In this document: one piece after another, positions 5,158-60,984 of the stretch | Layout of the letters: every line of letters begins with the position of its first letter | Position numbering within the stretch: the stretch's first letter is position 1 | Origin: a virus | Strand: one strand, 5' to 3' | UHGV virus genome: UHGV-0113858 | Length of the DNA: 64,000 bases | The notes under the pieces: model-generated | What the model was told of the DNA's origin: nothing | Database searches by the model: none | What the model saw: only the letters and a program-made list of their open reading frames with translations | Made by a program: the position numbers and the translations under genes

Positions 5158-5183
5158 GGGATTCTCCTCAATAATTTTCTTTG

Positions 5184-28261: not shown

Positions 28262-30022
28262 ATGGCTGATACAACACAATTTGAACAGGCTGTGGATCAG
28301 GTTATCGAGGATTCTGAGCGTCTCCATAAGGTGGTCAACGGATCGGCGATCGACACTGTTATTGTAGAAGATGGTAGCACGATTCCAACATTACGTAAAG
28401 CGCTTCTTGACAATGTGTATTTTAAAACACCACCACAACCTTGGGCTGCGGGGACACAGACAACAGTTTTTAACCAACTGTATTCCTTTACCAATTCAGC
28501 AGGGACGTTCTGGTGGTATGCTCCTGGTGCGTCACCATCTACACCTGTCACCTTACCTACTGATCCGTCTACAAGTACCGCTTGGAAAGTTTACAATGAT
28601 TCCGTTGTAGTTTCTGAAAAATTTGCGCCTCTTAACACCCCCGCATTTGTCGGTTCTCCGACAGCTCCTACCCCTGCTCAGGGAAGTAATAGTGGTGCAA
28701 TAGCGACAACTGCATTTGTCAACTTGGCTGTCGCAGCAGCGATCAATTCTCTTGCTGGGTCTTCTCCAAGTTATGCTGCTCTTACGGTGGTTGGTGCTTC
28801 AACCCTTAACACATTGGTTGTTTCTGGGACATCCCAATTTGGTGGGACGCTTGATGCCTCTGGTGTGCTTGGTAAATTCCAGAAAATTTCGTTATCTGGA
28901 CAAACTGCCACTCTTTCTTTTGACTACACCGCTGCCTCTAACTATCTGAAGACTATCATATCTCCGAACTCTGTTCAAACCAATAATCTGACTTCCGCAG
29001 TTATTGTGAATGGGACAGCTAGTGCAGACAACACCACAATGTCATTAACTGGTGTCGGTAATAACACCTTCGACTATGTGTATATCCGAGGTAACTCTTC
29101 CAAGGCCTCTACGGAACCAAGGCTTAAGGTAACCGGAACGACAGAACTTGAAAACGTAAGAGTAACTGGTTCGTTGTCCGGTGTCAATGTCGGTGTTGAT
29201 GGCTTAGACATTCACCCCAACTCTATTATCACAACGACAACAGCCCAGATAGGGTCAGATCTAACTGTAAACGGTGTAACAACTCTCGGAAGTGCCTCTA
29301 TTCAGAATTTAGGTGTAGTAAGTTCATTAACAGTCAATGGAAACAGTACATTAACTGGAGGATTTACAGCCGGTAGTGCTAGCTCTGTTGCAGGAAATCT
29401 GTCCATCACAGGCCTGCTTGCAGTTACTGGGGCAGCTACGGTAAGCACCAACCTTACAGTTACTGGAAACGCCAATCTTAATAATGGTGGGACAGGGACA
29501 ACAACTGTAAACAACCTTAACGTACTTGGTACTTTGACGGGTGTTTCTGTTGATGTCAATGGGAAGAACATTAACCCTAACTCCGTTCTGGCAACAACTA
29601 CAATAGAGGCATACGGATCTCTAAAAGGTGCATCCCTCGTTATTACAGGTGAAGCAACGGCTCCGAAGGTCACTGCGAATTTCGTAGGAACAATCCCCGG
29701 TTCTGTTACCACACCTTCCGCAGGGACAACTTGGACACCGGGAGGGACAGGCTCCGATCTAACGAAGATGAATAACATCTATAACGTAGATGTGACAAAT
29801 ACTTTAACTATCGGGCCTTGGGCAAATCTTGGTAGTGCTTTTACTGCTACGATCTATCTGTTCCAGGATGCAACTGGCGGACATGCCGTCACCCTTGATG
29901 CATCTTATAAAATCATAAATGGTGGTACGATCAGCACTGCTGCAAATTCAGTTACAATTCTACAAGTAACCTATTGTGGAAGAGGGACTGTATATGATGT
30001 AGCTATCTATCAAAGACCGTAA
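28262..30022 (+). CDS. long tail fibre protein
   Basis: 586 aa, SD aaggaga; repetitive Thr/Gly/Val/Asn segments (LTVNG, TVTGNANLNNGGTGTTTVNNLNV); last gene of the + strand block. Confidence 0.55.
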   Translation: MADTTQFEQAVDQVIEDSERLHKVVNGSAIDTVIVEDGSTIPTLRKALLDNVYFKTPPQPWAAGTQTTVFNQLYSFTNSAGTFWWYAPGASPSTPVTLPTDPSTSTAWKVYNDSVVVSEKFAPLNTPAFVGSPTAPTPAQGSNSGAIATTAFVNLAVAAAINSLAGSSPSYAALTVVGASTLNTLVVSGTSQFGGTLDASGVLGKFQKISLSGQTATLSFDYTAASNYLKTIISPNSVQTNNLTSAVIVNGTASADNTTMSLTGVGNNTFDYVYIRGNSSKASTEPRLKVTGTTELENVRVTGSLSGVNVGVDGLDIHPNSIITTTTAQIGSDLTVNGVTTLGSASIQNLGVVSSLTVNGNSTLTGGFTAGSASSVAGNLSITGLLAVTGAATVSTNLTVTGNANLNNGGTGTTTVNNLNVLGTLTGVSVDVNGKNINPNSVLATTTIEAYGSLKGASLVITGEATAPKVTANFVGTIPGSVTTPSAGTTWTPGGTGSDLTKMNNIYNVDVTNTLTIGPWANLGSAFTATIYLFQDATGGHAVTLDASYKIINGGTISTAANSVTILQVTYCGRGTVYDVAIYQRP

Positions 30023-30024
30023 TA

Positions 30025-30056
30025 AAAAAGGCTCCCAAATGGGAGCCTTTTCTTTT
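30025..30056. terminator. bidirectional rho-independent terminator between the convergent late (+) and early (-) units
   Basis: aaaaaaggctcccaaatgggagccttttctttt: an A-run, a GC stem, then a T-run. Confidence 0.65.
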
Positions 30057-30067
30057 ATACGGCGTTA

Positions 30068-31255
30068 TCAAAACGGTATTTCTTCGTCCCAGTCCATCGG
30101 CGGCTCATCAAAATCCATAGCCGGAGCATCTTGGGCAGGAGGTGTCGTTAAACGCTCCTGGACGGGCTGTGACGGAGTTTGATCGGCACCCTTGGCACTT
30201 TCACTAATGAACGTATAAAGCGGCTCAGAGAGCTTTGTATACACGTCCTTGGCTGCGTCCAGAATCGTTGCTTCAGAGACATCTGACTTAGCATTGAAAC
30301 GGCTACATGCAACCAGAATTGCGTTGCCAGCACTTGCACCTACCGGATTGGAATCGACTGGCTTACCAGTACGCTCCGCAACGAAAGCTTTCATATCCAA
30401 TGTGGCACGGTGAATGGCTTTAGCTGTCTCCAGCTCATCCTTCACTTTATAACCAGCACCCATCAACTCTTTCAGACCATTAATGGCGTGACCTGTTTCA
30501 ACACCAAATTGGTCGTAACCACTACTCTTTTTACCACCAGAACTACCACTGTTCTGACCCGCGGGGCCATAAGCTTTGAATCCGTTCAGGATGTTACCGT
30601 TAGACATATCCACAAAGGCAGTCATTCGTCCACCAACAGATACCTGTGCCAGTTGTTCATCGGAAAGAACTACACCGCCGGGTCCGTTCTTCTCGTCATT
30701 AACAGTCGCCAGATTACCTACGATTTCGGTAATCTCACCGTAGATCTTAACACCACCGCCTGACTGTGCTGCTGCGGCAGAAGACTGCTGCTGACGAGGT
30801 GCAGCTTGACCAGCTTTGCTTTCATCCAGAATGTTGAATGTCTTGCCGCTTAAAGTACCGTTGATATAGGTTTTATCCCCATTCTTAGAGACTTTCAGCG
30901 GGAAAGATACAACCATGCCAGCTAGAATATCTTTATAACCGGAATCAAACTTGACCTGAACCTTATCCGTGTGACTGGCGTGAAGTTTCTTCTCACCCAT
31001 ACCGATCCAATCGCCTTGGCTCTGTGGATCTACCACGTTATTATCTGCATCAACTTCCTGCATTAAAAAGCTGATAGTGTGGGTGGCTTCAATCACCTTA
31101 GCAGGTTGACCGTTACGTGCAGGGATATGGGTACGCTTAACACCGTCCTGATCGGCATTCTTCACAGGTTTGATGCTGATGAATTTGATGCTGCCTTTTG
31201 CGAAGTGGTTTACTTTGCCAGACATCGGGTCTTTGTATTCGTTTACTACGCTCAT
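30068..31255 (-). CDS. ssDNA-binding protein with a host-SSB-like C-terminal tail
   Basis: Start MSVVNEYKD at 31255 with SD aaggaga; C-terminus ...MDFDEPPMDWDEEIPF closely matches the E. coli SSB tip PPMDFDDDIPF; Gly/Ser/Gln-rich linker. Confidence 0.5.
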   Translation of the reverse strand: MSVVNEYKDPMSGKVNHFAKGSIKFISIKPVKNADQDGVKRTHIPARNGQPAKVIEATHTISFLMQEVDADNNVVDPQSQGDWIGMGEKKLHASHTDKVQVKFDSGYKDILAGMVVSFPLKVSKNGDKTYINGTLSGKTFNILDESKAGQAAPRQQQSSAAAAQSGGGVKIYGEITEIVGNLATVNDEKNGPGGVVLSDEQLAQVSVGGRMTAFVDMSNGNILNGFKAYGPAGQNSGSSGGKKSSGYDQFGVETGHAINGLKELMGAGYKVKDELETAKAIHRATLDMKAFVAERTGKPVDSNPVGASAGNAILVACSRFNAKSDVSEATILDAAKDVYTKLSEPLYTFISESAKGADQTPSQPVQERLTTPPAQDAPAMDFDEPPMDWDEEIPF

Positions 31256-31268
31256 CTTCTCTCCTTTA

Positions 31269-31610
31269 TTACTCAGATTTTTCTTCAACGACTTGTGTAA
31301 CTGGTACAGCAAGAAGTTGATCAACCAACATATCTTCAACTTGCGCCAAAAGATTTTGCGCGAAGGTTGAAGCTCCACTCAGTTGCATCACAGCATTACG
31401 CTGACCACGAATCCAGGCCAACGCCGTTTCGATAGTTTCGTGTTTGCCTTCACTGATCAAACGTTCCATTTCTTTTCTGACGGGTTCAGAATTTATATGG
31501 TCAGCCATCTGAACGCTGGCACTTGAGAGGAAAATCACAGTTCCGAACTGATTGGGGTCTAGTCCCAGGAAGCGTGCTTCGTTGGTAGGGGTTACTTCTT
31601 CAGTCATCAA
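31269..31610 (-). CDS. hypothetical protein
   Basis: 113-aa ORF, SD ggagg. Confidence 0.4.
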   Translation of the reverse strand: MMTEEVTPTNEARFLGLDPNQFGTVIFLSSASVQMADHINSEPVRKEMERLISEGKHETIETALAWIRGQRNAVMQLSGASTFAQNLLAQVEDMLVDQLLAVPVTQVVEEKSE

Positions 31611-31663
31611 TCCTCCATTTATTAGTGAAGGGGTATCTTACCCCTTTACACTTGTTATGTCAA

Positions 31664-31882
31664 TTACTTTCTTTTCTTTTTTGAACTTGACATCATTTCA
31701 GCCACACGGCCTACACTTGCCAGTCCCAGCCACCCGATAATCGCCATCAGGAAGAAGAAAAGAAGAACGGCAACACCGAAGTAGAGCGGTAGTAAAACAA
31801 GCCACCACGACCAGGCGATCACGCCGCACAGTTTAAGCGTGATAAATACCAACGCCAAAAGACCTAAGAAACCAATTTTCAT
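31664..31882 (-). CDS. small 2-TM membrane protein
   Basis: 72 aa, two hydrophobic helices, Lys-rich C-terminus. Confidence 0.45.
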   Translation of the reverse strand: MKIGFLGLLALVFITLKLCGVIAWSWWLVLLPLYFGVAVLLFFFLMAIIGWLGLASVGRVAEMMSSSKKKRK

Positions 31883-33812: not shown

Positions 33813-34024
33813 TCCACCCCTGAACTTATGCCGAAAGATACTATGCCGAGAACTAATCCCAAAAACCCACCAAGTATTACAGAGGTTTGGGCGTACTCGC
33901 CAAAGCCAGGTGTTCCGAATACTTCCCCCGCACTGATACCAACATAGTATCCGAGAGAGATAGATATTGCAAGCACAAAGAAGAACACCACTACACTGAT
34001 GGTTGTGGGAATGATTAAATCACG
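33809..34024 (-). CDS. small 2-TM membrane protein
   Basis: Start MRDLIIPTTISVVVFFFVLAISISLGYYVG; the listed ORF 33809..34066 has an earlier start, but an internal Met is preferred. Confidence 0.35.
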   Translation of the reverse strand, partial: RDLIIPTTISVVVFFFVLAISISLGYYVGISAGEVFGTPGFGEYAQTSVILGGFLGLVLGIVSFGISSGVE

Positions 34025-34742
34025 CATGTGTAGTTTCCTTTTCTGTTTTACGCCATTTGTAAGCACCGTACACAGAGTTTAACAGGAAAGTTACCCACAT
34101 TGCAAGGACTGCCCATCCTTGTATTTCATGATGCATTGCTGTCTGAATCCACAGAGCCACAGCAACCACGTTAACAATAATCCAGACATACCATTGTTCT
34201 GCATAACGAACCATCATCAGGTAGGTTGCCAGAACCGACAGGATTGCTGTAGCAGAATCGAGACCCGGCATATTCCCTTTCAGCAGGCTAACGAACTCGG
34301 CGTATAATCCGATCGTCACCAATGTCCCGATACCAACAATCCAGCGCTGTTTTGTGGTCAGATACTTCTTGATGACATCCGCACGTTCACCATCCGCAGA
34401 GACGGTTAACTTACGCGCCCAGATTATCCCACCAATGACCTGCATGGGTGTGAACAACAGGGTGTACATGATCGTTTCTCCGTAGAGTTTGTACGTGAAC
34501 GACACATAAGCATACAACACCGTTGCCACAAAACCCCAGTAATAACTGGAGAGCTTACCTTTTGCCACCAGGATAGCCCCGATGATCCCGGTAACAGAAG
34601 AGATGAACTCTACTAACCCACCGCCCATAGTCAAGGAGACAATGGCGATCGATGCCGAGCAGATGAGGAGCCAAAGATATTCAAGTTTTGACCAGCCATA
34701 AAAGTCAGTCCATGCTGTCTTAATGTACAGATTTGTATTCAT
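34020..34742 (-). CDS. pnuC: nicotinamide riboside / NMN transporter PnuC
   Basis: 240 aa, 7-8 TM, PnuC-like length and pattern (LVAKGKLSSYYWGFVATVLYAYVSF...); sits in the same gene block as a NadR-like enzyme. Confidence 0.6.
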   Translation of the reverse strand: MNTNLYIKTAWTDFYGWSKLEYLWLLICSASIAIVSLTMGGGLVEFISSVTGIIGAILVAKGKLSSYYWGFVATVLYAYVSFTYKLYGETIMYTLLFTPMQVIGGIIWARKLTVSADGERADVIKKYLTTKQRWIVGIGTLVTIGLYAEFVSLLKGNMPGLDSATAILSVLATYLMMVRYAEQWYVWIIVNVVAVALWIQTAMHHEIQGWAVLAMWVTFLLNSVYGAYKWRKTEKETTHA

Positions 34743-34744
34743 GG

Positions 34745-35002
34745 TTATTCTCCTGTTAATCGTTTAAGAAGCGCTTCGATTTTAGGATTCGCCGCGCCGT
34801 CACCGTATAACTTATACTTCAGATCCAACACTGCGTCAAGCAGTTCTGGTGCTGCTGCGATAAGATTTGCATCTTCAATACTATTAATCTCTGAACACAC
34901 GTCGCTGTAAGATCGCCACCCGGAACCTACCTCAAGAGAGCCTGAGACAATGACCTTTATTTCATCGTCATCATGAAATACTTCCCATGTATCTTTAGCC
35001 AT
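34745..35002 (-). CDS. hypothetical protein
   Basis: 85-aa ORF. Confidence 0.35.
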   Translation of the reverse strand: MAKDTWEVFHDDDEIKVIVSGSLEVGSGWRSYSDVCSEINSIEDANLIAAAPELLDAVLDLKYKLYGDGAANPKIEALLKRLTGE

Positions 35003-35294
35003 TTTTGCGCCCCTTTTTCTTTTTATTTTTCATTTCTGACCGAACTTTAGTTTGCCAAGCCATTGCTTCGTCAACAGCATTCGGTCCGTCAAAAACTTGG
35101 TTCTTCTCATCTGACTTGAACACAAAATTAGTACCTTTGTTATCCATTGCCTGGAAAACCCAGCCTGTCAGTGTCTCCTCGATGATCTTACCGCCGATCA
35201 GCAGACCATTACTTTTTGCATGAATTGCCATTTTTAACCCTCCATTACAACTGGTAAGACAGACCTGATCCCATCTCGCCATGCTAACCAACAC
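34995..35294 (-). CDS. hypothetical protein
   Basis: 99-aa ORF, Lys-rich C-terminus. Confidence 0.3.
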   Translation of the reverse strand: MLVSMARWDQVCLTSCNGGLKMAIHAKSNGLLIGGKIIEETLTGWVFQAMDNKGTNFVFKSDEKNQVFDGPNAVDEAMAWQTKVRSEMKNKKKKGRKNG

Positions 35295-35375
35295 ATCACT
35301 TGTAGGTTTTCACGCTCCTCTGCATCTGGAAAAAGATGCGCGGGTGCGTTTTTATCAAACCAGCCCATAAATTCT

Positions 35376-35762
35376 TTAGACATTTTGACTCCTCTGTTTT
35401 GCCCATTCGATTGCCGCAAGTATCACATCACAGTGACATGCTACCTCTTTGTTCGGCTGTTTACAGAAGCATACAAGGTCTTTACCATCCAAGTCAAGAA
35501 GATCTTGAATAGTAATTTTCCCAGCACGGATCTGTTGCCATAACCATACGCGATAGCGCTCAATCGTTGCCCCGCGAGGCTCATCCTTCGACAACTTATA
35601 TGGGTTAGCGAATTTAGATTGCTTCAGGCCCAAGTGGGGCATTGCTCGCCCCATGTACTCAGCATTTTCAGGGATCACTTTACCGATGTGGTAAAAGTTG
35701 AGAACTTTAGCCATTATACAGATACACGGCTGTGCAGCTCGCGAGACATAGCCACCAACCAT
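35376..35762 (-). CDS. hypothetical protein (DUF4326-like)
   Basis: Contains MAKVLNFYH...CFCKQPNKEVACHCDVIL, a Cys/His cluster. Confidence 0.35.
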   Translation of the reverse strand: MVGGYVSRAAQPCICIMAKVLNFYHIGKVIPENAEYMGRAMPHLGLKQSKFANPYKLSKDEPRGATIERYRVWLWQQIRAGKITIQDLLDLDGKDLVCFCKQPNKEVACHCDVILAAIEWAKQRSQNV

Positions 35763-36133
35763 TGTGTGATGCCATAACCCTCGTACTCATCAGTAAGACT
35801 GGAGTCTGTCAGCAACCAAATGATGGCGTTCCGCAAGTGGTCATCTGACATATGGGTCAGCCTGACAACCTTCCCGGATTCTGTTTTCCACACCATGATA
35901 CGTTTTGGTGGGCGAATATCCTCAAGACCCGCAGGGGTGATCATCATACCGGAACACCCGCAGCCACAAGCTATCACTTTACCATGCCCGATAAGAGAAG
36001 AGAGAGCCTCTGTAGTGGCAGGCTCGCCAAATTTATCAGCTACCTCTTTGTGGTACGTCCATCCCTGCTTTTCCTCCAAAGACTTCTCTAAGAAGTGGAG
36101 AATTTCCAGATTAGTTTGATCCATCGTTATCAC
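35714..36133 (-). CDS. hypothetical protein with CGCGCSG cysteine cluster
   Basis: 139-aa ORF. Confidence 0.35.
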   Translation of the reverse strand: MITMDQTNLEILHFLEKSLEEKQGWTYHKEVADKFGEPATTEALSSLIGHGKVIACGCGCSGMMITPAGLEDIRPPKRIMVWKTESGKVVRLTHMSDDHLRNAIIWLLTDSSLTDEYEGYGITQWLVAMSRELHSRVSV

Positions 36134-36476
36134 CTTTTAGGTACGCCACAATCCAATCCGCCGCCTCCTCGTACTCCTCATAGCCGAAGAATTTACGGCG
36201 AGCAAAATATGTATCGTCATCAGGCACATTCGTCTGGTAGTTGAAGTTACCAGGCTGACCCCAGTACACATTGATCTGATCACTGTTCCGGCACTCAGAA
36301 AAAGAGACTTGCTTTGAAAGGTCATTATCACATTTGTGATTCCATTTGGTTATGGAGAACCCTTGCTCACGACAGTTGGCATAAGCTTGAAGACCTTCCG
36401 CTAATTCAGGTGCCTTTTCCAAAATAATCTTCAGAACACCAAAAGCCTGCTTCATGCTTGAATTAGTTACGTTCAT
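36111..36476 (-). CDS. hypothetical protein
   Basis: 121-aa ORF, SD aaggaga; promoter-like TGGTAAAAAT 25 nt upstream. Confidence 0.4.
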   Translation of the reverse strand: MNVTNSSMKQAFGVLKIILEKAPELAEGLQAYANCREQGFSITKWNHKCDNDLSKQVSFSECRNSDQINVYWGQPGNFNYQTNVPDDDTYFARRKFFGYEEYEEAADWIVAYLKGDNDGSN

Positions 36477-36500
36477 CTTGTTCTCCTTTTTGTGCGGATA

Positions 36501-36540
36501 TTTTTACCATGAGTCTAGCCCATGCCTCTGAATCGCTCTT
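36501..36540 (-). promoter_or_regulatory. candidate promoter (cATGGTAAAAAT) for the gene at 36476
   Basis: Reverse complement of 36501-36511 is ATGGTAAAAAT, related to the + strand motif; weak -35. Confidence 0.3.
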
Positions 36541-36585
36541 ACGAACGATGCTAACACTGTACGGCATACTGTCGGTGTCCCGAAT

Positions 36586-36720
36586 GAAACGCTCACTTTG
36601 AGATTTCAAATTGCATCAGGATGGTATACCATCAACATCAGGCTTCCTGTTGCCCCACGGTATTGACAAATCTCTACAGATTCCTCACCGTTCCACTGGC
36701 GAACCAATACTAAATCGCCA
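36586..36720 (-). CDS. small ORF (45 aa) MGFPKLEVGDLVLVRQWNGEESVEICQYRGATGSLMLMVYHPDAI
   Basis: SD aaggaga 7 nt upstream; not in the ORF track (under 60 aa). Confidence 0.3.
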
Positions 36721-36729
36721 ACCTCAAGT

Positions 36730-37818
36730 TTAGGAAACCCCATTCTGTTCTCCTTTGATATTCAGCAATTTACGGACAGCTTCGGCGGCTTTCTGAGTAC
36801 GTTCTTTGTAATCACTTCCTGAGATAACTACCACCTTGCTTGTATCGTAAGATGTCCTGATCATTGTGTCAAGCAAAGAATGTGTTTCTTTACGCTTTTC
36901 TGGCGTATCCTGCAAGCGAAGAGGATCAGCAACCCACGGAACCTCTGGTGTGAGGAACAGGAATAGGTCGTAGAAGTTGTAGCTCTCTTCACGGCTCAGT
37001 GTGCGGAACAGAAGATCGGAGTAGTCGATCTTTTCTGCACAAATGCCAGAGAAGTGAGTGATCAGGTTTGTGGTGTCAGAGAACATAACCCCACAACCAC
37101 CCCAGCCAGCTAACTCCATTTCCTTCAGGCGATGCTCCATTGCGATACGAAGATAGTCTCCACGAGACATTGCTAACTCACTGGAGTGGTATTCACGCTC
37201 ACAGATAAGCCTCCCGATCTCAGGAATCCAACCAGCACCGAAGGTATGCGCCAGATGTTTTGTCAGGGTTGTCTTGCCCGTACTCTCAACACCAATGATG
37301 GCAACCTTCTTCATGAAGCGCTTACGTGCAGGCCACGCTAGGTTGTAGAAGTTGTTGTACGGATCATTACGGATCATCGTGGCTGAGATAGGAACAGCTT
37401 TACGTTCTGCGTCGATAACTACATGCTTCGCTTCAGGGAAGAACTCACTGAAGTAAGACTCATACTCCGGCTCAGAAGAGAAAGCAAAATCGTACTTAAC
37501 GAACGGTTGCTTTTCACGGATCAGTTTTGCATAGGCAGCACTGCCTTCAGGGTATCCTGGGATATTCGACTCATCAACGTAGTCTACCTTCACGTTGTCA
37601 AGTCCCTCGTCGGCAATGACATCCAGCAGGTCACGATAACGATCAGCAAGTCCCAGCTTAGGACGAATCCACTCTGGTTGTGCGTCAACGAATTTCTGGT
37701 CATAGGACAGGAACAGATACAGAGCACTAACCTGAGAAGCCGCCTGGCGAATGAATTCAATATGTCCGTTGGTCAGCGGTGCAAACTTTCCGAAGATAAG
37801 GCCGCGAGTAATCGTCAT
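36730..37818 (-). CDS. nadR: NadR-like bifunctional NMN adenylyltransferase / ribosylnicotinamide kinase (no HTH domain)
   Basis: N-terminal GKFAPLTNGH (nucleotidyltransferase HxGH-type motif), ATMIRNDP; C-terminal P-loop GVESTGKTTL kinase domain; 362 aa. Confidence 0.65.
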   Translation of the reverse strand: MTITRGLIFGKFAPLTNGHIEFIRQAASQVSALYLFLSYDQKFVDAQPEWIRPKLGLADRYRDLLDVIADEGLDNVKVDYVDESNIPGYPEGSAAYAKLIREKQPFVKYDFAFSSEPEYESYFSEFFPEAKHVVIDAERKAVPISATMIRNDPYNNFYNLAWPARKRFMKKVAIIGVESTGKTTLTKHLAHTFGAGWIPEIGRLICEREYHSSELAMSRGDYLRIAMEHRLKEMELAGWGGCGVMFSDTTNLITHFSGICAEKIDYSDLLFRTLSREESYNFYDLFLFLTPEVPWVADPLRLQDTPEKRKETHSLLDTMIRTSYDTSKVVVISGSDYKERTQKAAEAVRKLLNIKGEQNGVS

Positions 37819-37870
37819 TTGTTTTTCTCCATTGATTCAAGGGCAATGCTGTATAGAACTTGAGTCTTCT

Positions 37871-38062
37871 TCATTTGGCAAGTTCCACTTCAAGCTCTGC
37901 GATTTTAATTTTCAATTCAAGGGTGTCGCGTTTCAGTAGGGACTTTGCCAGTTCACTATCAACGGACTCGTTAATATCATTCGGGTTTGCTTCAGGATAA
38001 AACTCTGTTGCTTGTGCAGAGCAAGAAAGCGCGAGCAGGGCGGCTAGGATAATCTTTTTCAT
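37871..38062 (-). CDS. small coiled-coil lipoprotein (Lpp-like)
   Basis: Signal peptide plus lipobox LALSC; C-terminal heptad LKIKIAELEVELAK. Confidence 0.4.
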   Translation of the reverse strand: MKKIILAALLALSCSAQATEFYPEANPNDINESVDSELAKSLLKRDTLELKIKIAELEVELAK

Positions 38063-38095
38063 TTGAATCTCCTCTTGAGATTATTTAGTCAGAAT

Positions 38096-38302
38096 TTAGT
38101 AGCGAGACCACTTCACTCGACCACCGTCGCAGATCAGTTTGTTCTCAACGATAACACCATCAACCGAGTTAGCAAGGCGTTGCTCACCGTTAGGCTTGCA
38201 ATTATGGGTCACGTTATCTGCGATGTCAAGCGATATGTAGGCGACAACTGCAACAACAATCACAATAACCAACGGACGCACCCAAGGCATGAATCCACGC
38301 AT
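38096..38302 (-). CDS. small membrane protein
   Basis: 68 aa, one TM (PLVIVIVVAVVAYISL). Confidence 0.3.
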   Translation of the reverse strand: MRGFMPWVRPLVIVIVVAVVAYISLDIADNVTHNCKPNGEQRLANSVDGVIVENKLICDGGRVKWSRY

Positions 38303-38312
38303 TTATTTCTCC

Positions 38313-38558
38313 TTACCAGCCGGAAGTATCGACAATCACGCCACCCAAAAGAAGCAGGAAGAATTCAAGCATAAACATACCGAAACCTGCTCCCAAAATT
38401 TCTTTTGTTTGTTGCTCATGGTCTGCTGTAAATGAAAGCCCCAACGTTGTCAGCATGGTCAGGGCCATAAGGCCTAACACTGCATAAATAAAATGTGAAA
38501 GCTTCATAGGGCGATACTCCAGAGATGCACCGTAAAAGCAGCGTTGATGACTGCACAA
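38313..38558 (-). CDS. small 2-TM membrane protein
   Basis: 81 aa with two hydrophobic segments. Confidence 0.35.
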   Translation of the reverse strand: MCSHQRCFYGASLEYRPMKLSHFIYAVLGLMALTMLTTLGLSFTADHEQQTKEILGAGFGMFMLEFFLLLLGGVIVDTSGW

Positions 38559-38740
38559 CCTACGTACACCGTGCGGTGTGTTTCATCTTTTGAAAAGACA
38601 GCGCCGAAGGCACAAGAAACACAGGCCACTGCTGCCAGAACTAAAAAGAAATAATTGATTGCCTCTAACATACACCCTCCAGGTTATTTAGCTTCCATAA
38701 CAATAAAGCCCCTCAACCATGAAGTCAAGAGGCTTTTGAA

Positions 38741-39100
38741 TTATTTTTGCAGCTCCTTAATGTAGTCCCGCAAACCGCAAATCATATTATATTTTGCCGT
38801 TTCTTCTTCGGTGAGCGGTCTGACTTCTTCATCCACACCAACATTGTTGTGGTAGTCCCACCAGGCGTCTACATGGACAAGTACAAGAAACGGTTCATAT
38901 CCTCTTTTACGTGTTTCCCACACGGCCCGCTCACCAGTAAAATCTGCTGGTAAGCTATAGATGAAGTTCCTCAGCAGTTCTTTGGTGAGGACATCTGCGA
39001 GGTAGTCTGGTGTTTGTGCCTTGACAATATTCATGATCTCTTCATCAGAGATATCTACTTCCACATTCTGTACAATAGTTTGTTTGCCAGTTACTTTCAT
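38741..39100 (-). CDS. hypothetical protein
   Basis: 119-aa ORF. Confidence 0.4.
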   Translation of the reverse strand: MKVTGKQTIVQNVEVDISDEEIMNIVKAQTPDYLADVLTKELLRNFIYSLPADFTGERAVWETRKRGYEPFLVLVHVDAWWDYHNNVGVDEEVRPLTEEETAKYNMICGLRDYIKELQK

Positions 39101-39117
39101 TTATCCTCCAACACAAA

Positions 39118-39141
39118 AAGGCCCCGAAGGGCCTTGGCGGG
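39118..39141 (-). terminator. rho-independent terminator downstream of the 39146 gene
   Basis: - strand reads ccgccaaggcccttcggggcctttttgtgtt. Confidence 0.5.
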
Positions 39142-39145
39142 CAGA

Positions 39146-39565
39146 TTACAGAGATTCCAGCTCTTTCAGGATCTCTTCACGAGACATCGCTGCATCTTTC
39201 TCGTTATCCTTCTCTGCCAGCAGGTCCAGAAGTTTACGCTTACGCTCAACCTTCTCTTTCGCTGCCTGGCGATCCGCGATCTCCGCTTTACGCACCGAGA
39301 TGATGTACTTCAGGATATCCAGCTTCAGGTTTGCTTCGCCATTTACAGCACTGGCCTCGACAACGAAACTTTCTTCAGCAGATGCTTTCACATCACGGTT
39401 AGCCAGTTTGGAAACCGTATCCAGGCTGGTATTACCAGTCATCGGCAGATCCCACAGATCTTCTGTGGTCAGTAGACCTTTCGGGCTTGCAAAACGCAGT
39501 TTTTTACGGGTAGCCAGTTCGAACAGGGTAGCGGTATTTGCGATGGTAGTATTGATGATTGACAT
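39146..39565 (-). CDS. hypothetical protein with C-terminal coiled coil
   Basis: 139-aa ORF. Confidence 0.4.
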   Translation of the reverse strand: MSIINTTIANTATLFELATRKKLRFASPKGLLTTEDLWDLPMTGNTSLDTVSKLANRDVKASAEESFVVEASAVNGEANLKLDILKYIISVRKAEIADRQAAKEKVERKRKLLDLLAEKDNEKDAAMSREEILKELESL

Positions 39566-39581: not shown

Positions 39582-39794
39582 TTAGTTTTTCAGTAAGCTG
39601 CGTTCTTCAAGAATCTCAGCCAATTGTTGTTCAGTTGCCCGGTACGTAAAGGAGTGCAACATTTTCTTTGCAGTTATGTACGCACACCCGAACTCATTGC
39701 ATATCCTTTGGTAAGGATTTTCTGGAGGAGCGAACCCCTCCAGACATGCAACGAGTCTATCAGTTACCGGGGTTGGTTGCAACCCCGTTTTCAT
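39582..39794 (-). CDS. hypothetical small protein
   Basis: 70 aa, start overlaps the upstream gene's stop. Confidence 0.3.
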   Translation of the reverse strand: MKTGLQPTPVTDRLVACLEGFAPPENPYQRICNEFGCAYITAKKMLHSFTYRATEQQLAEILEERSLLKN

Positions 39795-41824
39795 CAGAAT
39801 TTAATCTTCAGGGTGCGGTTGAAAGAACCAGTAACCTTCACAACCAACTCGTTACGCTGGGTAGACGAGAAGCCCAGGCCGCTCAGTTGGTCAGTGGAGT
39901 GTTCAGCTTTGAGCTTGGAACCCAACACTTCGAACACTTTACGATGCTCATGCAGCTCGTCACGCAGATACTCATTGTAGAAGCCACGAGTATCGTCAGG
40001 GTTAATGCAACCTTCCAGCATAAAGAAGTAGTGTTTGTTACCTTTGGTCTGACCATCCCAGAAGTTAGGAGAATTCAGCACCAGAGAAACTTTCTGGAAG
40101 GTCTCGGTAGAGACGCCCCATACTTCTTTAGATTGCTTAGTATGCCCGATGCTGTCTACAATTTCAACACCTTTCGCACGAGAATACTTAAAGGTTACAA
40201 CGGTCTGGCTCTTGCTATTACCCAAAGCTTGCGGGTATGCAAAGTTGAACACTTGGCCTTTGTACTCCATCTGTACTTCGAAGCCAACGCGATCAGTCAT
40301 GCGCTTATTATAGTTGTTAACAACAACCTTGTAAACACCTTCCGTGATATTACGCTCATTTTCCCACGTAACGTTCTCAACCGGATGGTGTGCGTCTGAC
40401 TTGCCATAGGCATTCATATCCACATCCAGCGTACCCGTTGAGCGACCACGTTTGTTACCGAAGTAAATTTGACCGCCACCAGGCTCGAATACATGCAGGT
40501 CGAGGTCATCACTGTTGTACCAGGACAACGAAACACGCAGGTCACCAGTCACGCTACCGCCAGCGGCTTTCACACGCTCCTTGATGGAGTCAGTTACTTC
40601 GCCATTATACGACCAGGAGAAGCCGTTATCCCATTTGAACAGGTTAGGAGCACCTGCGTTTGCCGGGGCAACCAGGCTCATCAGGTTCGGTGTCAGACGA
40701 CCTTCAACCAGCGCTTCGATAGTGTCCGCTTTCGGCAGAACGTTATTGATGAAATCCTCAATGCTGATCTCTTCTACTTTCGACAGTGACTTCGGCGCGT
40801 TTTTGGTTGACGCTGCCAGTTGCTCGAATACGTTCATCTGGGCCTTTGCAGAACGGTCAGCAAACAACACGTTGTTGATCGTCAGGTCAGAGGTCACCGC
40901 AAAGCGACGTGCCAGAGATTCAGTCAAGCCGAGGGCTTCAACCTTCTCTTGTGCTGCCTTGATCATGCCCGGAGTTACCAGAGCTGTAGTACGCTTGTAG
41001 TTGGTCCCTGAGACTTTGTCTTCAAAGGACTTCACTGCGGCTTCAAGATCAATACCTTCTGCCAGATCGCTCATCAGTGTACCGATGACATCATTACGGA
41101 AGCGGCCCAGTTTACCCAGCGTTTCACTTTGTTTCCAGCAGAAGTTCATTCGCTGATCTTCCGGCGTTTTGTCGTATGCACGTTTCGCCTTAATAAAGGC
41201 AGCAACAATGTGCTTTTTCTCATCACCACGGTACAGAGAGCCTTGGTTGATCAGGTCCATTACCGTTTCGGCAGAGTCCATATCGATATCTTTCAGAGAA
41301 CGTGCCAGCACAGTTGCGTTGTCACGGTACTCACCCAGGGCAGAAGGGATATCTTCACCACGTTTAACCAGTTCGCGAGGCAGGGCCTGATGGAAGTGGG
41401 TCCAGGTTTTGGTTTTCCCATTTTCCAGCAGAGCTACGTTGCTCTCAGTACCAACGCGGCCTTCGAAGTGGAAGAAGCGATCGCGGATCTCGGCGCTTTC
41501 AACACGCGCTTTCATCGCATCGGCAACAACTTGGTAGTAACCACCAACTTTAACGTCCCAAATAGAGACCAGCTTGCCGTTGTGAATCGCGACTACTCGG
41601 CCCAGAGTACGGATGTAGCTCTTGCAGCAGTTACAGTCATATTCACGGCGCTCTTTATACATCAGATTGGTGCCTTCCGGGAAAGAGTCGAGGTACAGGT
41701 AGTACAGTTCATCTTTCGGTACATCGACCGTGTAAAGCGCACCCAGCGCTTGCATGACAGCGAACTGAGCTTTCAGAGCTTTTACGAAGTCAGCGTAAGG
41801 TACGGTTTCATATTTTGCGGTCAT
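39794..41824 (-). CDS. large early protein of unknown function (676 aa) with N-terminal YDCNCCKSY cysteine cluster
   Basis: Long ORF with a strong sigma70 promoter 60 nt upstream; no P-loop or ligase (KxDG) motif seen; C-terminal DLDLHVFEPGGGQIYFGNKRGRSTGTLDVDMNAY segment. Confidence 0.5.
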   Translation of the reverse strand: MTAKYETVPYADFVKALKAQFAVMQALGALYTVDVPKDELYYLYLDSFPEGTNLMYKERREYDCNCCKSYIRTLGRVVAIHNGKLVSIWDVKVGGYYQVVADAMKARVESAEIRDRFFHFEGRVGTESNVALLENGKTKTWTHFHQALPRELVKRGEDIPSALGEYRDNATVLARSLKDIDMDSAETVMDLINQGSLYRGDEKKHIVAAFIKAKRAYDKTPEDQRMNFCWKQSETLGKLGRFRNDVIGTLMSDLAEGIDLEAAVKSFEDKVSGTNYKRTTALVTPGMIKAAQEKVEALGLTESLARRFAVTSDLTINNVLFADRSAKAQMNVFEQLAASTKNAPKSLSKVEEISIEDFINNVLPKADTIEALVEGRLTPNLMSLVAPANAGAPNLFKWDNGFSWSYNGEVTDSIKERVKAAGGSVTGDLRVSLSWYNSDDLDLHVFEPGGGQIYFGNKRGRSTGTLDVDMNAYGKSDAHHPVENVTWENERNITEGVYKVVVNNYNKRMTDRVGFEVQMEYKGQVFNFAYPQALGNSKSQTVVTFKYSRAKGVEIVDSIGHTKQSKEVWGVSTETFQKVSLVLNSPNFWDGQTKGNKHYFFMLEGCINPDDTRGFYNEYLRDELHEHRKVFEVLGSKLKAEHSTDQLSGLGFSSTQRNELVVKVTGSFNRTLKIKF

Positions 41825-42155: not shown

Positions 42156-42782
42156 CTATTGTGATAGCGGCTTAGTCTTGGCTGCACGTTTTCCTTTGTT
42201 ACGCTCTTTACGAGGTATGCCTGTATATGATGACCAAGACCTCCCGGTAAAGATGTTGCTGATGGTGATCTGCTTCACACCAAACATATCGGCAATTGCC
42301 TGCTGACTCATTTTACCACGAAGTCCCAGTATCCTATCAACATCCGATTCCTTAAGGACTGCGTGTTTGCAATTATCCCCAGATCTGTTCGAATAGTCTT
42401 GTGGACTATACTCATTGTTGTATGAAGGAGTACACCACTCAAGGTTGTCAACGTGATTATTAAGCGGGTTTCCATCCTTGTGGTTGACAAGAACAACTTT
42501 GTGACCACCTTTCAGGCACTCGTCTATTAATTCTTGACCCGGAGGCGCAAGAAAGGCCTCGGCTACAAGGCGGTGTACAAACGGCATCCATCCAGGGGCT
42601 AGTGTAACCTGCCGATAACCGTGACTGTCTAATTGTCCCCACAAATGTTTTTCTGGGAAAGTCTGCATCCAAGTGGTAAATTGATTCTTTGTCAGTACCT
42701 GGTACTCTTTACGCCTTACAAAGCCATAATTACTAACTTGGTACTTCCCCTCCGTAGAGGGGATGTCCTTCCATATCTCCAT
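42156..42782 (-). CDS. HNH homing endonuclease (NUMOD4 plus HNH_3 plus C-terminal HTH)
   Basis: Start MEIWKDIPSTEGKYQVSNYGFVRR (NUMOD4-like); HRLVAEAF...VNHKDGNPLNNHVDNLEW (HNH_3); SD ggag; lies just downstream of DNA polymerase exon 2. Confidence 0.6.
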   Translation of the reverse strand: MEIWKDIPSTEGKYQVSNYGFVRRKEYQVLTKNQFTTWMQTFPEKHLWGQLDSHGYRQVTLAPGWMPFVHRLVAEAFLAPPGQELIDECLKGGHKVVLVNHKDGNPLNNHVDNLEWCTPSYNNEYSPQDYSNRSGDNCKHAVLKESDVDRILGLRGKMSQQAIADMFGVKQITISNIFTGRSWSSYTGIPRKERNKGKRAAKTKPLSQ

Positions 42783-42808
42783 AAAACTCCTTATAAAACA
42801 GTATGTTA

Positions 42809-43492
42809 CTAGTGGCAATCGGCCCAGGATCGCCCAGTCAGATATGCCCCTGTGATATGTACAGGACTGCCCATGATACGAGCTGCCTTCTCTACACATC
42901 TTACGACCATTTCACCTACAGGGCAATACTGGATGTGAATTTTACCATCCTCTCCAAAAATACCCTCGTAGACTGTATTGCCTTCCGCATCCTTGACTTT
43001 ATCACCATTTTCATCTTTGACGGCCTTTCTCCACTCATGCCCGTCAAATACGCGGCCTTTTGCTTCCCATTCTTTTACGAAAGCTGTTGCCTCTTCCAGG
43101 GTGTCAAACTCCCACTTCTTCAAGTATTTCTTAGGAACCTGGAGCTGGTATTCATCATGGTAGTAAATCAGGCGACGAACGTCATCATCATACCAGCCAC
43201 GTTTGATCAGTTCCCAGTGAAGCAGGATACCAACCAGATCGAATAGAGATGCACCACCGTTTTGCTGGAAAGCATTCAGAAGAGAGTGCTTAGAACGGGT
43301 CCAAATCTTACGACCATCGAGACCAGGGATATAACGTTTACCCGTTGCTTCCCAGAAGTTTTCAAGCCATTCCTTACGACCTTTCAAACCAAAGTTACTA
43401 TCCCAGAAAGCATCGATTACCGCCTGTGCCTTGTCAAGGGAAATGTGAAGCATTGCTGCAATCTTAGCTGCCTGAGCACCATACATGATCCT
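42809..43492 (-). CDS. DNA polymerase (family A, T7-type), exon 2: motif B/C and C-terminus
   Basis: IMYGAQAAKIA continues polymerase motif B (T7: FLYGAGDEKIG); ends ...SWADCH like T7 gp5 ...WAICH. Confidence 0.65.
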   Translation of the reverse strand, partial: RIMYGAQAAKIAAMLHISLDKAQAVIDAFWDSNFGLKGRKEWLENFWEATGKRYIPGLDGRKIWTRSKHSLLNAFQQNGGASLFDLVGILLHWELIKRGWYDDDVRRLIYYHDEYQLQVPKKYLKKWEFDTLEEATAFVKEWEAKGRVFDGHEWRKAVKDENGDKVKDAEGNTVYEGIFGEDGKIHIQYCPVGEMVVRCVEKAARIMGSPVHITGAYLTGRSWADCH

Positions 43493-43620
43493 AATGTTCG
43501 ACATGGGACGCTACCACCATGCCCGTTCTCTTATGAACTGCTGCATGTTTCCATGCAGAGCAGACTATATCTTCACCCACTTGGGGTGTCCACCGCTTCG
43601 GGCCGCTTGGCCCTACTCCG

Positions 43621-44022
43621 TTACCGGATAGTCGTTGGGATTTTACCTCTTGCCAAATACCACTCTTCACCACTACAGTAAAGATTGTTGCAAACAGCAT
43701 GTTCTACATTAGATGCACGGCATGATAATTCTATATTTTCCCAGCAATTATTCAATGTGTTTGCATCTAGGTGGTTGACCTCTTCCTCTTCAAGAAGGTC
43801 TCTACCGACCTTTGCCGCACAAATCAACCTGTGCAACAAATAGTGTTTGCCATTTTTCAAACAGATACGCTGATAAAATTTCTTTCCCTTACCTTTGTGT
43901 AGATAGGGCTTCAACTTTCTTAGTTTTCCACGATTGCTGGAGTATATATTACCTTCGTGGTCACAAAAGTATCCGTTTGATATTGGTATTTTAGCCAAGG
44001 TACTTATCTGCTGATTGTCCAT
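43621..44022 (-). CDS. intron-encoded HNH homing endonuclease
   Basis: 133 aa; HNH_3-type motif (LHRLICAAKVG...VNHLDANTLNNCWENIE); own SD aggagg and an internal TTGACA-N16-TATGAT promoter at 44044-44071. Confidence 0.6.
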   Translation of the reverse strand: MDNQQISTLAKIPISNGYFCDHEGNIYSSNRGKLRKLKPYLHKGKGKKFYQRICLKNGKHYLLHRLICAAKVGRDLLEEEEVNHLDANTLNNCWENIELSCRASNVEHAVCNNLYCSGEEWYLARGKIPTTIR

Positions 44023-44043
44023 TTCATCCTCCTAAAAGGAGAA

Positions 44044-44071
44044 ATCATACATAAATTTTTCAAACTGTCAA
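44044..44071 (-). promoter_or_regulatory. sigma70 promoter inside the intron driving the HNH ORF
   Basis: Reverse complement of 44066-44071 is TTGACA, of 44044-44049 is TATGAT; 16-nt spacer; 22 nt upstream of the ATG. Confidence 0.45.
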
Positions 44072-44173
44072 GCCCATCCTCGCGGATCACTTTGTAGTAT
44101 TTATGTCTTTAGGATTTCCCAGCAATTCAATGGATGCACCTTATAAATTACTTCATAAGGGGGCTATCAATTA

Positions 44174-60626: not shown

Positions 60627-60819
60627 GAACTACATATCTTTGTTGGTCATCAAAATACTGCTTCCCACTCCATGTTGCGTGGACAAGATTCCACGCATTC
60701 TTGGCAGCGCCAGAGCTAATCCATCCAATCTTGGCTTTGTGGTTCCAGAGGCATCTGTCAACAGTGTCATAGATGACAAAAACCGATTTACTCATCAGGA
60801 CCCTCCAGCTTCCAGCCAC
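60562..60819 (-). CDS. hypothetical protein
   Basis: 85-aa ORF. Confidence 0.3.
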   Translation of the reverse strand: MAGSWRVLMSKSVFVIYDTVDRCLWNHKAKIGWISSGAAKNAWNLVHATWSGKQYFDDQQRYVVLELSGGHISKLFEENKIDKTN

Positions 60820-60976: not shown

Positions 60977-60984
60977 ACCGTCTC

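What the first reader, a model, noticed from the sequence alone, without database searches (positions are those of the whole stretch)
34020..37818. Phage-encoded nicotinamide-riboside salvage pair: PnuC transporter plus HTH-less NadR (NMNAT/NR kinase)
A PnuC-like 7-8 TM transporter (34020-34742) and a NadR-like protein (36730-37818) sit in the same early-gene block. The NadR-like protein has the GKFAPLTNGH adenylyltransferase motif and a C-terminal GVESTGKTTL kinase P-loop. Together they would take up NR/NMN and convert it to NAD+ with no host regulator domain. Published phage NAD reconstitution pathways use NAMPT/NMNAT or ADPR-PP routes. A PnuC-NadR (NR-based) route serving as counter-defence against NAD+-depleting immunity (Thoeris ThsA, DSR, TIR-CBASS, SIR2-pAgo) would be a distinct variant. 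It is flanked by further candidate counter-defence genes: a macrodomain and a Tad2-like protein.
Basis: partly seen in the sequence, partly recalled or inferred. Interest (0 to 1): 0.85.

Follow-up and report, generated by a model that had tools for sequence, protein, structure and literature searches.

The report
Phage PnuC–NadR NAD+ salvage pair (NARP3-like)
This Klebsiella phage really does carry a nicotinamide-riboside transporter and a regulator-less NadR enzyme that together should rebuild NAD+, but the same two-gene strategy was published and tested in 2026 as "NARP3", so this is a correct but already-known finding.

Summary
ORF 34020-34742(-) is a PnuC-family transporter. ORF 36730-37818(-) is an HTH-less NadR-type NMN adenylyltransferase / NR kinase. 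Both quoted motifs are present.

The window is a Vequintavirinae-like Klebsiella myovirus, 98.7% identical to vB_Kpn_K54_rec6. Records of close relatives already annotate both genes.

The proposed role, NR import then NR→NMN→NAD+ to counter NAD+-depleting immunity, is no longer new. Osterman et al. (2024) suggested it. Yan et al. (Sci Adv, Aug 2026) demonstrated it as "NARP3" with Bas30_86/87 of a T5-like phage. The best solved-structure match of the window enzyme is Bas30_86 (9X6F, E=1.8e-59, 36% identity). The residues mutated in that study are kept.

Differences from the published system:
- The proteins are only about 36-37% identical to it.
- The genes are not adjacent: 1,987 nt and seven small genes lie between them, including a DUF4326 gene.
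- The NMN-loop Trp is replaced, as in the whole branch.
- A 98.7%-identical relative also carries a NARP1-type pair and a Sir2 gene outside the window.

The "flanking" claim fails. The macrodomain is 23 kb away, and the "Tad2-like" ORF has no sequence support.

Verdict: real, correctly interpreted, already known, low interest.

The parts
36730..37818 (-). NadR-like bifunctional enzyme, 362 aa, no HTH domain. It has an N-terminal NMN adenylyltransferase and a C-terminal ribosylnicotinamide kinase.
   Evidence: The best PDB match is Bas30_86 (9X6F/9X6H), E=1.8e-59, at 36.1% identity. Residues that are functional in Bas30_86 are conserved.
37366..37797 (-). NMNAT (HIGH-superfamily nucleotidyltransferase) domain, aa 8-151. 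Carries GKFAPLTNGH and ISATMIR.
   Evidence: PF01467, E=1.6e-5, aa 8-151. K11, G18, H19, E83, Y89, P90, G92, F113-E116, I144-T147 and R150 are invariant across six phage lineages.
36799..37308 (-). Ribosylnicotinamide kinase (P-loop) domain, aa 171-340. Walker A is GVESTGKTT; Walker B is the conserved FSDT.
   Evidence: PF13521 AAA_28, E=1.7e-21, aa 171-340. K171, G176, E178, S179, G181, K182, E233, D248 and D284 are invariant. E233 and D284 align with Bas30_86 E230 and D275, which mutagenesis showed to be essential.
34020..34742 (-). PnuC-family nicotinamide riboside transporter, 240 aa, multi-pass membrane protein.
   Evidence: 37.2% identical to the T5-like Bas26_0087, which stands in for Bas30_87, and 35.6% to N. 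mucosa PnuC. Q101, E182, Q183, W184, W187, N191 and N222 are invariant across phage lineages.
34745..36743 (-). Block of seven small co-directional genes between NadR-like and PnuC-like, called as eight ORFs here because one is frameshifted. All abut or overlap their neighbours.
   Evidence: The relative K54_rec6 has seven CDS in this interval. PHROG hits have unknown function, apart from DUF4326 and a Phage_tudor domain. No convincing terminator lies between the two genes of interest.
35376..35762 (-). DUF4326 protein, 128 aa, located between the pair. Possible link to ADP-ribose and NAD metabolism.
   Evidence: PF14216, E=4e-18. Iyer et al. 2022 classify DUF4326 as a rhodanese-phosphatase clade often fused to Macro, NADAR or SLOG domains, and predict that it processes ribose-linked phosphates of ADPr derivatives. 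In Erwinia Henunavirus the homologous 'NrdA-like' gene lies two genes upstream of NadR.

Best explanation
The two genes form a NARP3-type NAD+ reconstitution pathway in a Vequintavirinae-like Klebsiella phage.

Proposed mechanism:
1. The PnuC-like membrane protein lets external nicotinamide riboside (NR) into the infected cell.
2. The kinase domain of the NadR-like enzyme phosphorylates NR to NMN. This also traps it inside.
3. The adenylyltransferase domain joins NMN to the AMP moiety of ATP to give NAD+.
4. The enzyme has no HTH domain, so it has no repressor role.
5. Expressed with the replication-gene block, the pair would keep NAD+ available when host NADase defences (Sir2-HerA, DSR, Thoeris-type) try to deplete it.

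What is shown and what is inferred:
- Shown here: family membership, domain layout, conserved functional residues, conserved NadR→PnuC order, and co-occurrence across phage lineages.
- Shown by others on a homologue about 36% identical: NR transport, NR→NMN→NAD+ chemistry, and rescue from Sir2-HerA and DSR1.
- Inferred: that this lineage's proteins do the same, that they are co-transcribed, and that counter-defence is the selected role.
For: Family and domain hits.

Relation to the characterised system:
- The closest solved structure is the characterised NARP3 enzyme Bas30_86 (9X6F/9X6H).
- Bas30_86 residues K10, F11, S37, E80, P84, G89, F110, S112, V139, I141, K163, K168, E230 and D275 are identical in the window enzyme. 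D115→E and R167→K are conservative changes.
- Both catalytic domains keep many invariant positions across six phage lineages 38-60% identical to the window enzyme.
- The PnuC-like protein passes the NCBIfam PnuC equivalog cutoff. It keeps Q101 and N191, which align with Bas30_87 Q94 and N180.

Genomic linkage:
- NadR-like and PnuC-like genes occur in 729 and 803 phage records. The counts per host genus nearly match: Salmonella 176/178, Klebsiella 48/47, Escherichia 38/38, Bacillus 24/24, Lactobacillus 18/18, Erwinia 14/14.
- The NadR→PnuC order on one strand holds in T5-like, Aeromonas, ICP1, Erwinia jumbo and Henunavirus phages.
- The ORFs between the pair are tightly packed, with no convincing terminator.

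Published experiments:
- The Bas30 pair gave NR-dependent rescue from Sir2-HerA and DSR1, including in K. pneumoniae.
Against: - No experiment exists for this lineage.
- The enzyme is only 36% identical to Bas30_86. It scores below both NCBIfam NadR cutoffs (176 against 341, and 165 against 201), whereas the T5-like enzyme passes one of them.
- Bas30_86 W90, said to stabilise NMN, is Ser here. The whole non-T5 branch lacks that Trp, however.
- Bas30_87 N45 is Gly here.
- The genes are 1,987 nt apart rather than adjacent. Co-transcription is only inferred.
- Even NARP3 itself was not tested in its native phage.
- A 98.7%-identical relative also has a NARP1-type pair. The NR route may therefore be redundant or conditional on NR supply.
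Confidence: 0.78

Rival explanations
1. General metabolic booster rather than counter-defence. The pair raises NAD+ supply for phage replication, or for phage NAD+-consuming enzymes such as the Sir2-family protein seen in the relative, whether or not the host has NADase immunity. This does not exclude the main explanation.
For: Genome papers list these genes simply as nucleotide-metabolism genes. The relative encodes a Sir2-family protein (PF02146, E=1e-23). The pair sits among replication genes. The NARP3 paper reports minimal cost of expression.
Against: The homologous pair specifically rescues phages from Sir2-HerA and DSR1. The lineage also carries a NARP1-type pair, which suggests strong selection on NAD+ restoration. 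In ICP1 the block occurs in only nine records, an accessory pattern typical of arms-race genes.
Confidence: 0.25
2. The NadR-like enzyme mainly serves as the NMN adenylyltransferase partner of the lineage's NAMPT-like enzyme, a NARP2-like route from nicotinamide. The kinase domain and PnuC would then be secondary.
For: The relative has a NAPRTase-family protein (PF04095). Iyer et al. note that NadR can co-occur with NadV in phages.
Against: The NAMPT-like gene is adjacent to a Prs-like gene. That is the NARP1 signature, in which the product is NAD+ directly, so no NMNAT is needed. The kinase Walker A and B motifs and the NR-site residues are conserved. PnuC tracks NadR across lineages.
Confidence: 0.1
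3. The PnuC-like protein carries another substrate, as some PnuC-family members do (thiamine, deoxynucleosides), and is not functionally linked to the NadR-like enzyme.
For: Some PnuC-family hits in phages are annotated as deoxyribonucleotide transporters (Enterococcus EFDG1). Two of the four N. mucosa NR-contact residues cited by Yan et al. differ here: Q196→T173 and Y242→F219.
Against: It passes the PnuC equivalog cutoff. The same two substitutions occur in Bas30_87, a demonstrated NR transporter (M and F at those positions). It is tightly co-distributed with NadR.
Confidence: 0.05

Closest known systems
NARP3 (Bas30_86 NadR-like + Bas30_87 PnuC-like) of T5-like Escherichia phage TrudiRoth; Yan et al., Sci Adv 2026 (PMC13464706)
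   Same: Same two protein families. Same HTH-less NMNAT+RNK architecture. Same NadR→PnuC order and strand. The mutationally defined residues are conserved. The predicted chemistry is the same (NR import, NR→NMN→NAD+).
   Different: Only 36-37% identity. A different phage subfamily (Vequintavirinae-like myovirus rather than Demerecviridae siphovirus). The genes are separated by seven small genes and 1,987 nt instead of 2 nt. W90→S and N45→G. The lineage was largely missed by the paper's BLAST survey, which found 124 hits with only one from Klebsiella. Untested experimentally.
Bacterial NadR (E. coli 8X7F, H. influenzae 1LW7) with chromosomal PnuC
   Same: Homologous NMNAT and RNK domains (E=2e-30 and 3e-26). 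Homologous transporter (4QTN). From my own knowledge of the Salmonella and Haemophilus literature, NR uptake there is driven by kinase trapping.
   Different: No HTH repressor domain. 26-30% identity. Below the NCBIfam NadR cutoffs. Encoded in one co-directional cluster on a virulent phage, whereas the bacterial genes are unlinked.
NARP1 (Adps + Namat) and NARP2 (Nampt + Nmnat); Osterman et al. 2024
   Same: Same goal of restoring NAD+ during infection. A NARP1-type pair is present in the near-identical relative.
   Different: Different substrates (ADPR + nicotinamide, or PRPP + nicotinamide) and unrelated first enzymes. Neither includes a transporter.
Annotated homologues in Klebsiella, Proteus, Raoultella and Salmonella Vequintavirinae-like phages (KB57, KNP2, Mydo, KpS8, and the Salmonella phage of PMC11358711)
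   Same: 93-99.7% identical proteins, the same split layout, and already named 'nicotinamide-nucleotide adenylyltransferase' and 'PnuC-like transporter'.
   Different: None of substance. These records are the same thing, listed but never studied functionally.

Membership tests
NARP3 (phage PnuC + HTH-less NadR NAD+ reconstitution pathway) | A PnuC-family nicotinamide riboside transporter gene | tested here: met
   TIGR01528, 114 bits against a cutoff of 42.45. PF04973, E=1e-38. 4QTN, E=8e-41.
NARP3 (phage PnuC + HTH-less NadR NAD+ reconstitution pathway) | A NadR-type enzyme with NMNAT and RNK domains but no N-terminal HTH | tested here: met
   PF01467 aa 8-151 plus PF13521 aa 171-340. Aligns to positions 65-408 of 411 in the NadR profile. 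Only 9 residues lie before the GKFAPLTNGH motif.
NARP3 (phage PnuC + HTH-less NadR NAD+ reconstitution pathway) | Conservation of the Bas30_86 residues shown by mutagenesis to be needed (K10, F11, S37, E80, P84, G89, F110, S112, D115, V139, I141, E230, D275) | tested here: met
   All are identical except D115→E118, a conservative change. Most are invariant across six lineages. W90, which was described but not mutated, is Ser here and is absent from the whole non-T5 branch.
NARP3 (phage PnuC + HTH-less NadR NAD+ reconstitution pathway) | Conservation of the Bas30_87 NR-binding residues N45, Q94 and N180 | tested here: inconclusive
   Q101 and N191 are conserved. N45 aligns with G52, which is also Gly in N. 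mucosa PnuC.
NARP3 (phage PnuC + HTH-less NadR NAD+ reconstitution pathway) | Compact adjacent two-gene operon | tested here: not met
   The order and strand are the same, but 1,987 nt and seven genes lie between the two. They are adjacent in T5-like, Aeromonas, ICP1 and Erwinia jumbo phages, and one ORF apart in Henunavirus. Co-transcription is plausible but unproven.
NARP3 (phage PnuC + HTH-less NadR NAD+ reconstitution pathway) | NR-dependent restoration of NAD+ and rescue of phage from Sir2-HerA or DSR1 | not testable with these tools
   Shown only for Bas30_86/87 expressed from plasmids.
Bacterial trifunctional NadR (NCBIfam PRK08099 / TIGR01526) | Score above the curated equivalog cutoffs, and an HTH domain | tested here: not met
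   164.7 against a cutoff of 201, and 176.1 against 341.15. The HTH part of the profile is unmatched. The T5-like enzyme scores 256 and 273 on the same models.
Tad2 (DUF2829) anti-Thoeris sponge, claimed for a nearby ORF (63022-63288) | Sequence or fold similarity to DUF2829/Tad2 | tested here: not met
   No Pfam hit at E<=1. No PDB sequence hit at E<=10. Only PHROGs of unknown function. The single-sequence AF2 model has pLDDT 45, too poor for a fold search.
Macrodomain, claimed as flanking | Macro domain hit, and proximity to the pair | tested here: inconclusive
   The domain is present (PF01661, 23.5 bits against a cutoff of 22; phrog_335, E=4e-64). It lies at 60985-61596, 23 kb from NadR, next to an RNA ligase (59535-60626).
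NARP1 (Adps + Namat) in the same phage lineage | A Prs-family gene next to a NAPRTase-family gene | tested here: met
   Met in the relative PQ569692 (PF14572, PF00156 and PF13793, adjacent to PF04095). This matches the operational criterion of Osterman et al.. The region lies outside the 64-kb window, so it could not be checked for this genome.

The most novel reading that the evidence does not exclude
In Vequintavirinae-like phages the NR route may be one arm of a larger, layered NAD+/ADP-ribose toolkit rather than a stand-alone two-gene cassette. The toolkit would be the NadR-like and PnuC-like pair with a DUF4326 phosphatase-like gene embedded between them, plus a NARP1-type pair, a Sir2 protein and a macrodomain elsewhere in the genome. 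NARP1 would recycle ADPR and nicotinamide, while the NR route would bring in fresh pyridine when defences destroy or divert those breakdown products. DUF4326 could be a functional third component of the NR block.
Probability: 0.15. Interest if true: 0.5.

Novelty: already known. Interest (0 to 1): 0.2.

Why it matters
The pathway itself matters, because NAD+ depletion is a common bacterial anti-phage strategy and NR-based restoration helps phages escape it. That is relevant to phage therapy against Klebsiella. The concept, biochemistry, structure and anti-defence activity are already published, and this phage group's genes are already annotated.

The window adds modest points:
- NARP3-type genes are common in a second large phage group (about 48 Klebsiella phage records) that the published survey barely touched.
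- They can be split by inserted genes.
- They can coexist with a NARP1-type pair.

NARP3 has not been tested in any native phage, so culturable KB57/KNP2-type Klebsiella phages would be a practical system for that experiment.

Tried and rejected
1. I scanned the other minus-strand ORFs as concatenated pseudo-proteins joined by GS linkers. It worked, but the linkers produced spurious 'Serglycin' hits, which I ignored. The marginal macro hit had to be re-tested on its own.

2. The Python sandbox lacked most fetched loci, so I made the multi-lineage alignments with align_proteins instead.

3. I searched with the conserved 676-aa neighbour (39794-41824) to locate rV5/Bas63-type genomes and ask whether the pair is accessory within the subfamily. 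That protein is too widespread (552 records, many families) to be useful, so I dropped the question.

4. I looked for native-context evidence on whether NadR-PnuC alone is enough, using the ICP1/Nezha study. I rejected this line, because only nine ICP1 records carry the block and the Nezha-sensitive isolates lack it. It says nothing either way.

5. The fold-level test of the 'Tad2-like' ORF gave a single-sequence AF2 model with pLDDT 45. A fold search on it would be meaningless, so I did not run one. I ran no further search on this peripheral claim.

6. The promoter and terminator scan found no more sites than chance, so co-transcription is inferred from gene packing only.

7. I considered that W90→S marks an inactive enzyme. 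I rejected this, because the whole Vequintavirinae/Erwinia/Aeromonas/ICP1 branch lacks that Trp while keeping all other catalytic positions.


Full report
**What is there**

The minus strand of the window carries the two ORFs exactly as reported: 34020-34742 (240 aa) and 36730-37818 (362 aa).

The 240-aa protein is a PnuC-family transporter:
- Pfam PF04973, E=1.1e-38.
- The NCBIfam equivalog model TIGR01528 'nicotinamide riboside transporter PnuC', 114 bits against a cutoff of 42.45.
- phrog_1880 'PnuC-like', E=6e-80.
- A gap-free alignment of residues 14-235 to the crystallised Neisseria mucosa PnuC, 4QTN, E=8e-41.

The 362-aa protein is an HTH-less NadR-type enzyme:
- A cytidylyltransferase-like domain (aa 8-151) followed by a P-loop AAA_28 domain (aa 171-340).
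- It aligns to positions 65-408 of the 411-position NadR profile PRK08099, that is, everything except the HTH.
- phrog_3462 'nicotinamide-nucleotide adenylyltransferase', E=1e-139.
- The ORF starts nine residues before the first motif and cannot be extended, so there is no HTH.

**Where the window comes from**

The region is 98.7% identical to Klebsiella phage vB_Kpn_K54_rec6. It is 94-98% identical to KPP-1, KNP2, Proteus phage Mydo, KpS11 and KB57. These are myoviruses of about 145 kb. More distant relatives with the same genes are classified in Vequintavirinae.

Most of these records already name the two genes 'nicotinamide-nucleotide adenylyltransferase' and 'PnuC-like nicotinamide mononucleotide transport'. 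A 2024 genome paper on a Salmonella phage of this group lists Prs, NAMPT, PnuC-like, NMNAT and SIR2 genes together. There PnuC is ORF161 and NMNAT is CDS167.

**What is already published**

- Osterman et al. (2024) stated that some phages encode NadR homologues, usually in an operon with PnuC. They suggested this could be a further NAD+ reconstitution pathway.
- Yan et al. (Sci Adv, 12 Aug 2026, PMC13464706) named it NARP3, using Bas30_86 (HTH-less NadR) and Bas30_87 (PnuC-like) from a T5-like coliphage.
- They showed NR binding and import, and NR→NMN→NAD+ conversion. They solved crystal structures 9X6H and 9X6F.
- They also showed NR-dependent rescue of T7, λ and Klebsiella phages from Sir2-HerA, and counteraction of DSR1.

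**How the window's proteins compare with the characterised ones**

- The best solved-structure match of the window enzyme is Bas30_86 itself (E=1.8e-59, 205 bits). E. coli NadR scores 110 bits and H. influenzae NadR 96 bits.
- For alignments I used the T5-like protein of phage Bas26. It differs from the 9X6F chain at one position over the aligned region. Identity to the window enzyme is 36.1%.
- Every residue mutated or highlighted in Bas30_86 is identical here, except for two conservative changes (D115→E, R167→K) and W90→S93.
- An alignment with Erwinia Henunavirus, an Erwinia jumbo phage, Aeromonas PAc, ICP1 and the T5-like enzyme shows the Trp only in the T5-like branch. The aromatic residue three positions later, and a long list of positions in both domains, are invariant. 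The substitution is therefore a clade feature, not a sign of decay.
- The enzyme is more diverged from bacterial NadR than Bas30_86 is. It falls below both NCBIfam NadR cutoffs, while the T5-like enzyme passes one.
- The transporter is 37% identical to the T5-like PnuC and 36% to N. mucosa PnuC. It keeps Q101 and N191 (Bas30_87 Q94 and N180), but has Gly where Bas30_87 has N45, as N. mucosa PnuC does.

**Genomic organisation**

In T5-like, Aeromonas, ICP1 and Erwinia jumbo phages, NadR is immediately followed by PnuC. In Erwinia Henunavirus one ORF separates them.

In the window the order and strand are the same, but 1,987 nt lie between the two genes. The interval holds seven small genes, which appear as eight ORFs here. 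All ORFs in the interval abut or overlap. The only terminator-like matches are weak, lie inside the two coding sequences, and are no more numerous than chance. Co-transcription is plausible but not shown.

The only intervening gene with an informative domain is a DUF4326 protein (35376-35762). Iyer et al. place this domain in the rhodanese-phosphatase superfamily. They note fusions to Macro, NADAR and SLOG domains and predict a role on phosphorylated ADP-ribose derivatives. That is a lead, not a finding. Its linkage to the pair is seen only within one phage subfamily, where shared synteny explains it equally well.

**Functional linkage of the pair**

NadR-like and PnuC-like genes occur in 729 and 803 phage records. 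The counts per host genus nearly match: Salmonella 176/178, Klebsiella 48/47, Escherichia 38/38, Bacillus 24/24, Lactobacillus 18/18 and Erwinia 14/14. Together with the conserved gene order, this supports their acting together.

From my own knowledge of the Salmonella and Haemophilus literature, PnuC is a facilitator whose net uptake depends on NR phosphorylation by NadR. This fits the report that neither Bas30 gene works alone.

**The 'flanking counter-defence genes'**

- A macrodomain protein exists (60985-61596; PF01661, 23.5 bits against a cutoff of 22; phrog_335, E=4e-64). It is 23 kb from the NadR-like gene and lies next to an RNA ligase (59535-60626). An RNA-repair role is at least as likely as counter-defence.
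- The ORF that best fits 'Tad2-like' (63022-63288) has no Pfam hit at E<=1, no PDB sequence hit at E<=10, and only PHROGs of unknown function.
- A single-sequence structure model of that ORF was too poor (pLDDT 45) to search with.
- This part of the finding is not supported.

**Wider context outside the window**

In the 98.7%-identical relative, outside the part matching the window, a Prs-family gene sits next to a NAPRTase-family gene. That is the arrangement Osterman et al. use to recognise NARP1 (Adps + Namat). Nearby are a Sir2-family gene and an ATP-dependent ligase. The lineage thus probably carries two NAD+ reconstitution routes.

In ICP1 the NadR-PnuC block is present in only nine records, MW794141-MW794149, which include a 2017 DRC isolate. 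A separate study reports that functional NARP1 (nrsAB) in ICP1 is limited to a few pre-2002 Bangladesh isolates and six 2017 Congo isolates. The overlap is suggestive, but I did not follow it further.

**Verdict**

The pair is real and its predicted function is very likely right. I put the chemistry at about 0.85 and counter-defence as the main selected role at about 0.65.

It belongs to a system that has been hypothesised, named, structurally solved and functionally demonstrated. Its sequences are already annotated in public phage genomes. The differences (sequence divergence, split layout with an embedded DUF4326 gene, likely coexistence with NARP1) are incremental. The novelty class is 'already known' and interest is low.

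Noticed in passing
window 35376-35762 (-): A DUF4326 protein (PF14216, E=4e-18) lies between the NadR-like and PnuC-like genes. The literature predicts that this domain processes phosphates on ADP-ribose derivatives and reports fusions to Macro, NADAR and SLOG domains. In Erwinia Henunavirus the homologue lies two genes upstream of NadR. It could be a third component, or simply inherited synteny.
   Followed up: partly
window 36463-36743 (-), indel near 36608: The Phage_tudor-domain gene immediately downstream of NadR is split into two ORFs. The cause is a single-T deletion in a T-run relative to the otherwise identical K54_rec6 sequence. It is either a homopolymer sequencing error or a recent pseudogene.
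   Followed up: yes
L003 (PQ569692.1) 29248-31789 (-) and 37326-39406 (+); outside the window: The 98.7%-identical relative has a Prs-family gene next to a NAPRTase-family gene (the NARP1 signature). It also has a Sir2-family gene next to an ATP-dependent DNA ligase. The lineage probably carries both NARP1 and a NARP3-type pair.
   Followed up: partly
window 59535-61596 (-): The macrodomain protein (60985-61596, phrog_335 'phosphatase') sits beside an RNA ligase (59535-60626, PF09414/phrog_548). The pairing suggests RNA repair or ADP-ribose-1''-phosphate processing rather than anti-defence.
   Followed up: no
window 63022-63288 (-): An 88-aa ORF with a 'W-EA--A---GK-IR' N-terminal pattern that probably prompted the Tad2 call. 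It has no Pfam or PDB sequence match, only phrog_3474 (unknown function), and the AF2 single-sequence model has pLDDT 45. Its identity is unresolved.
   Followed up: partly
L009 (ICP1 MW794144.1) 3989-5749; records MW794141-MW794149: In Vibrio phage ICP1 the adjacent NadR-PnuC block occurs in only nine records, which include a 2017 DRC isolate. Its genes lack the old 'GP' numbering, so it looks like an accessory insertion. A published study says functional NARP1 (nrsAB) in ICP1 is confined to pre-2002 Bangladesh and 2017 Congo isolates.
   Followed up: partly
window about 42156-46716 (-); L001 29014-33722: The DNA polymerase gene region is broken up by several HNH homing-endonuclease ORFs. The relative's annotation shows three 'DNA polymerase' pieces interleaved with HNH genes, which suggests intron, intein or free-standing endonuclease insertions.
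   Followed up: no
window 39794-41824 (-): A 676-aa protein of unknown function (phrog_1735, no Pfam domain, 'YfaP' in some records) is conserved at 40-57% identity in 552 phage records from many unrelated families, including Vi1-like phages, phiCbK, Bacillus and cyanophages.
   Followed up: no
hits H1, H14, H23 (OY979426.1, OY757067.1, OY978796.1): In these OY-series Klebsiella phage records, the features listed under the NadR/PnuC-homologous DNA are unrelated names (DNA ligase, Sir2, PhoH, tRNA nucleotidyltransferase). This suggests their annotation coordinates are offset or on the wrong strand.
   Followed up: no
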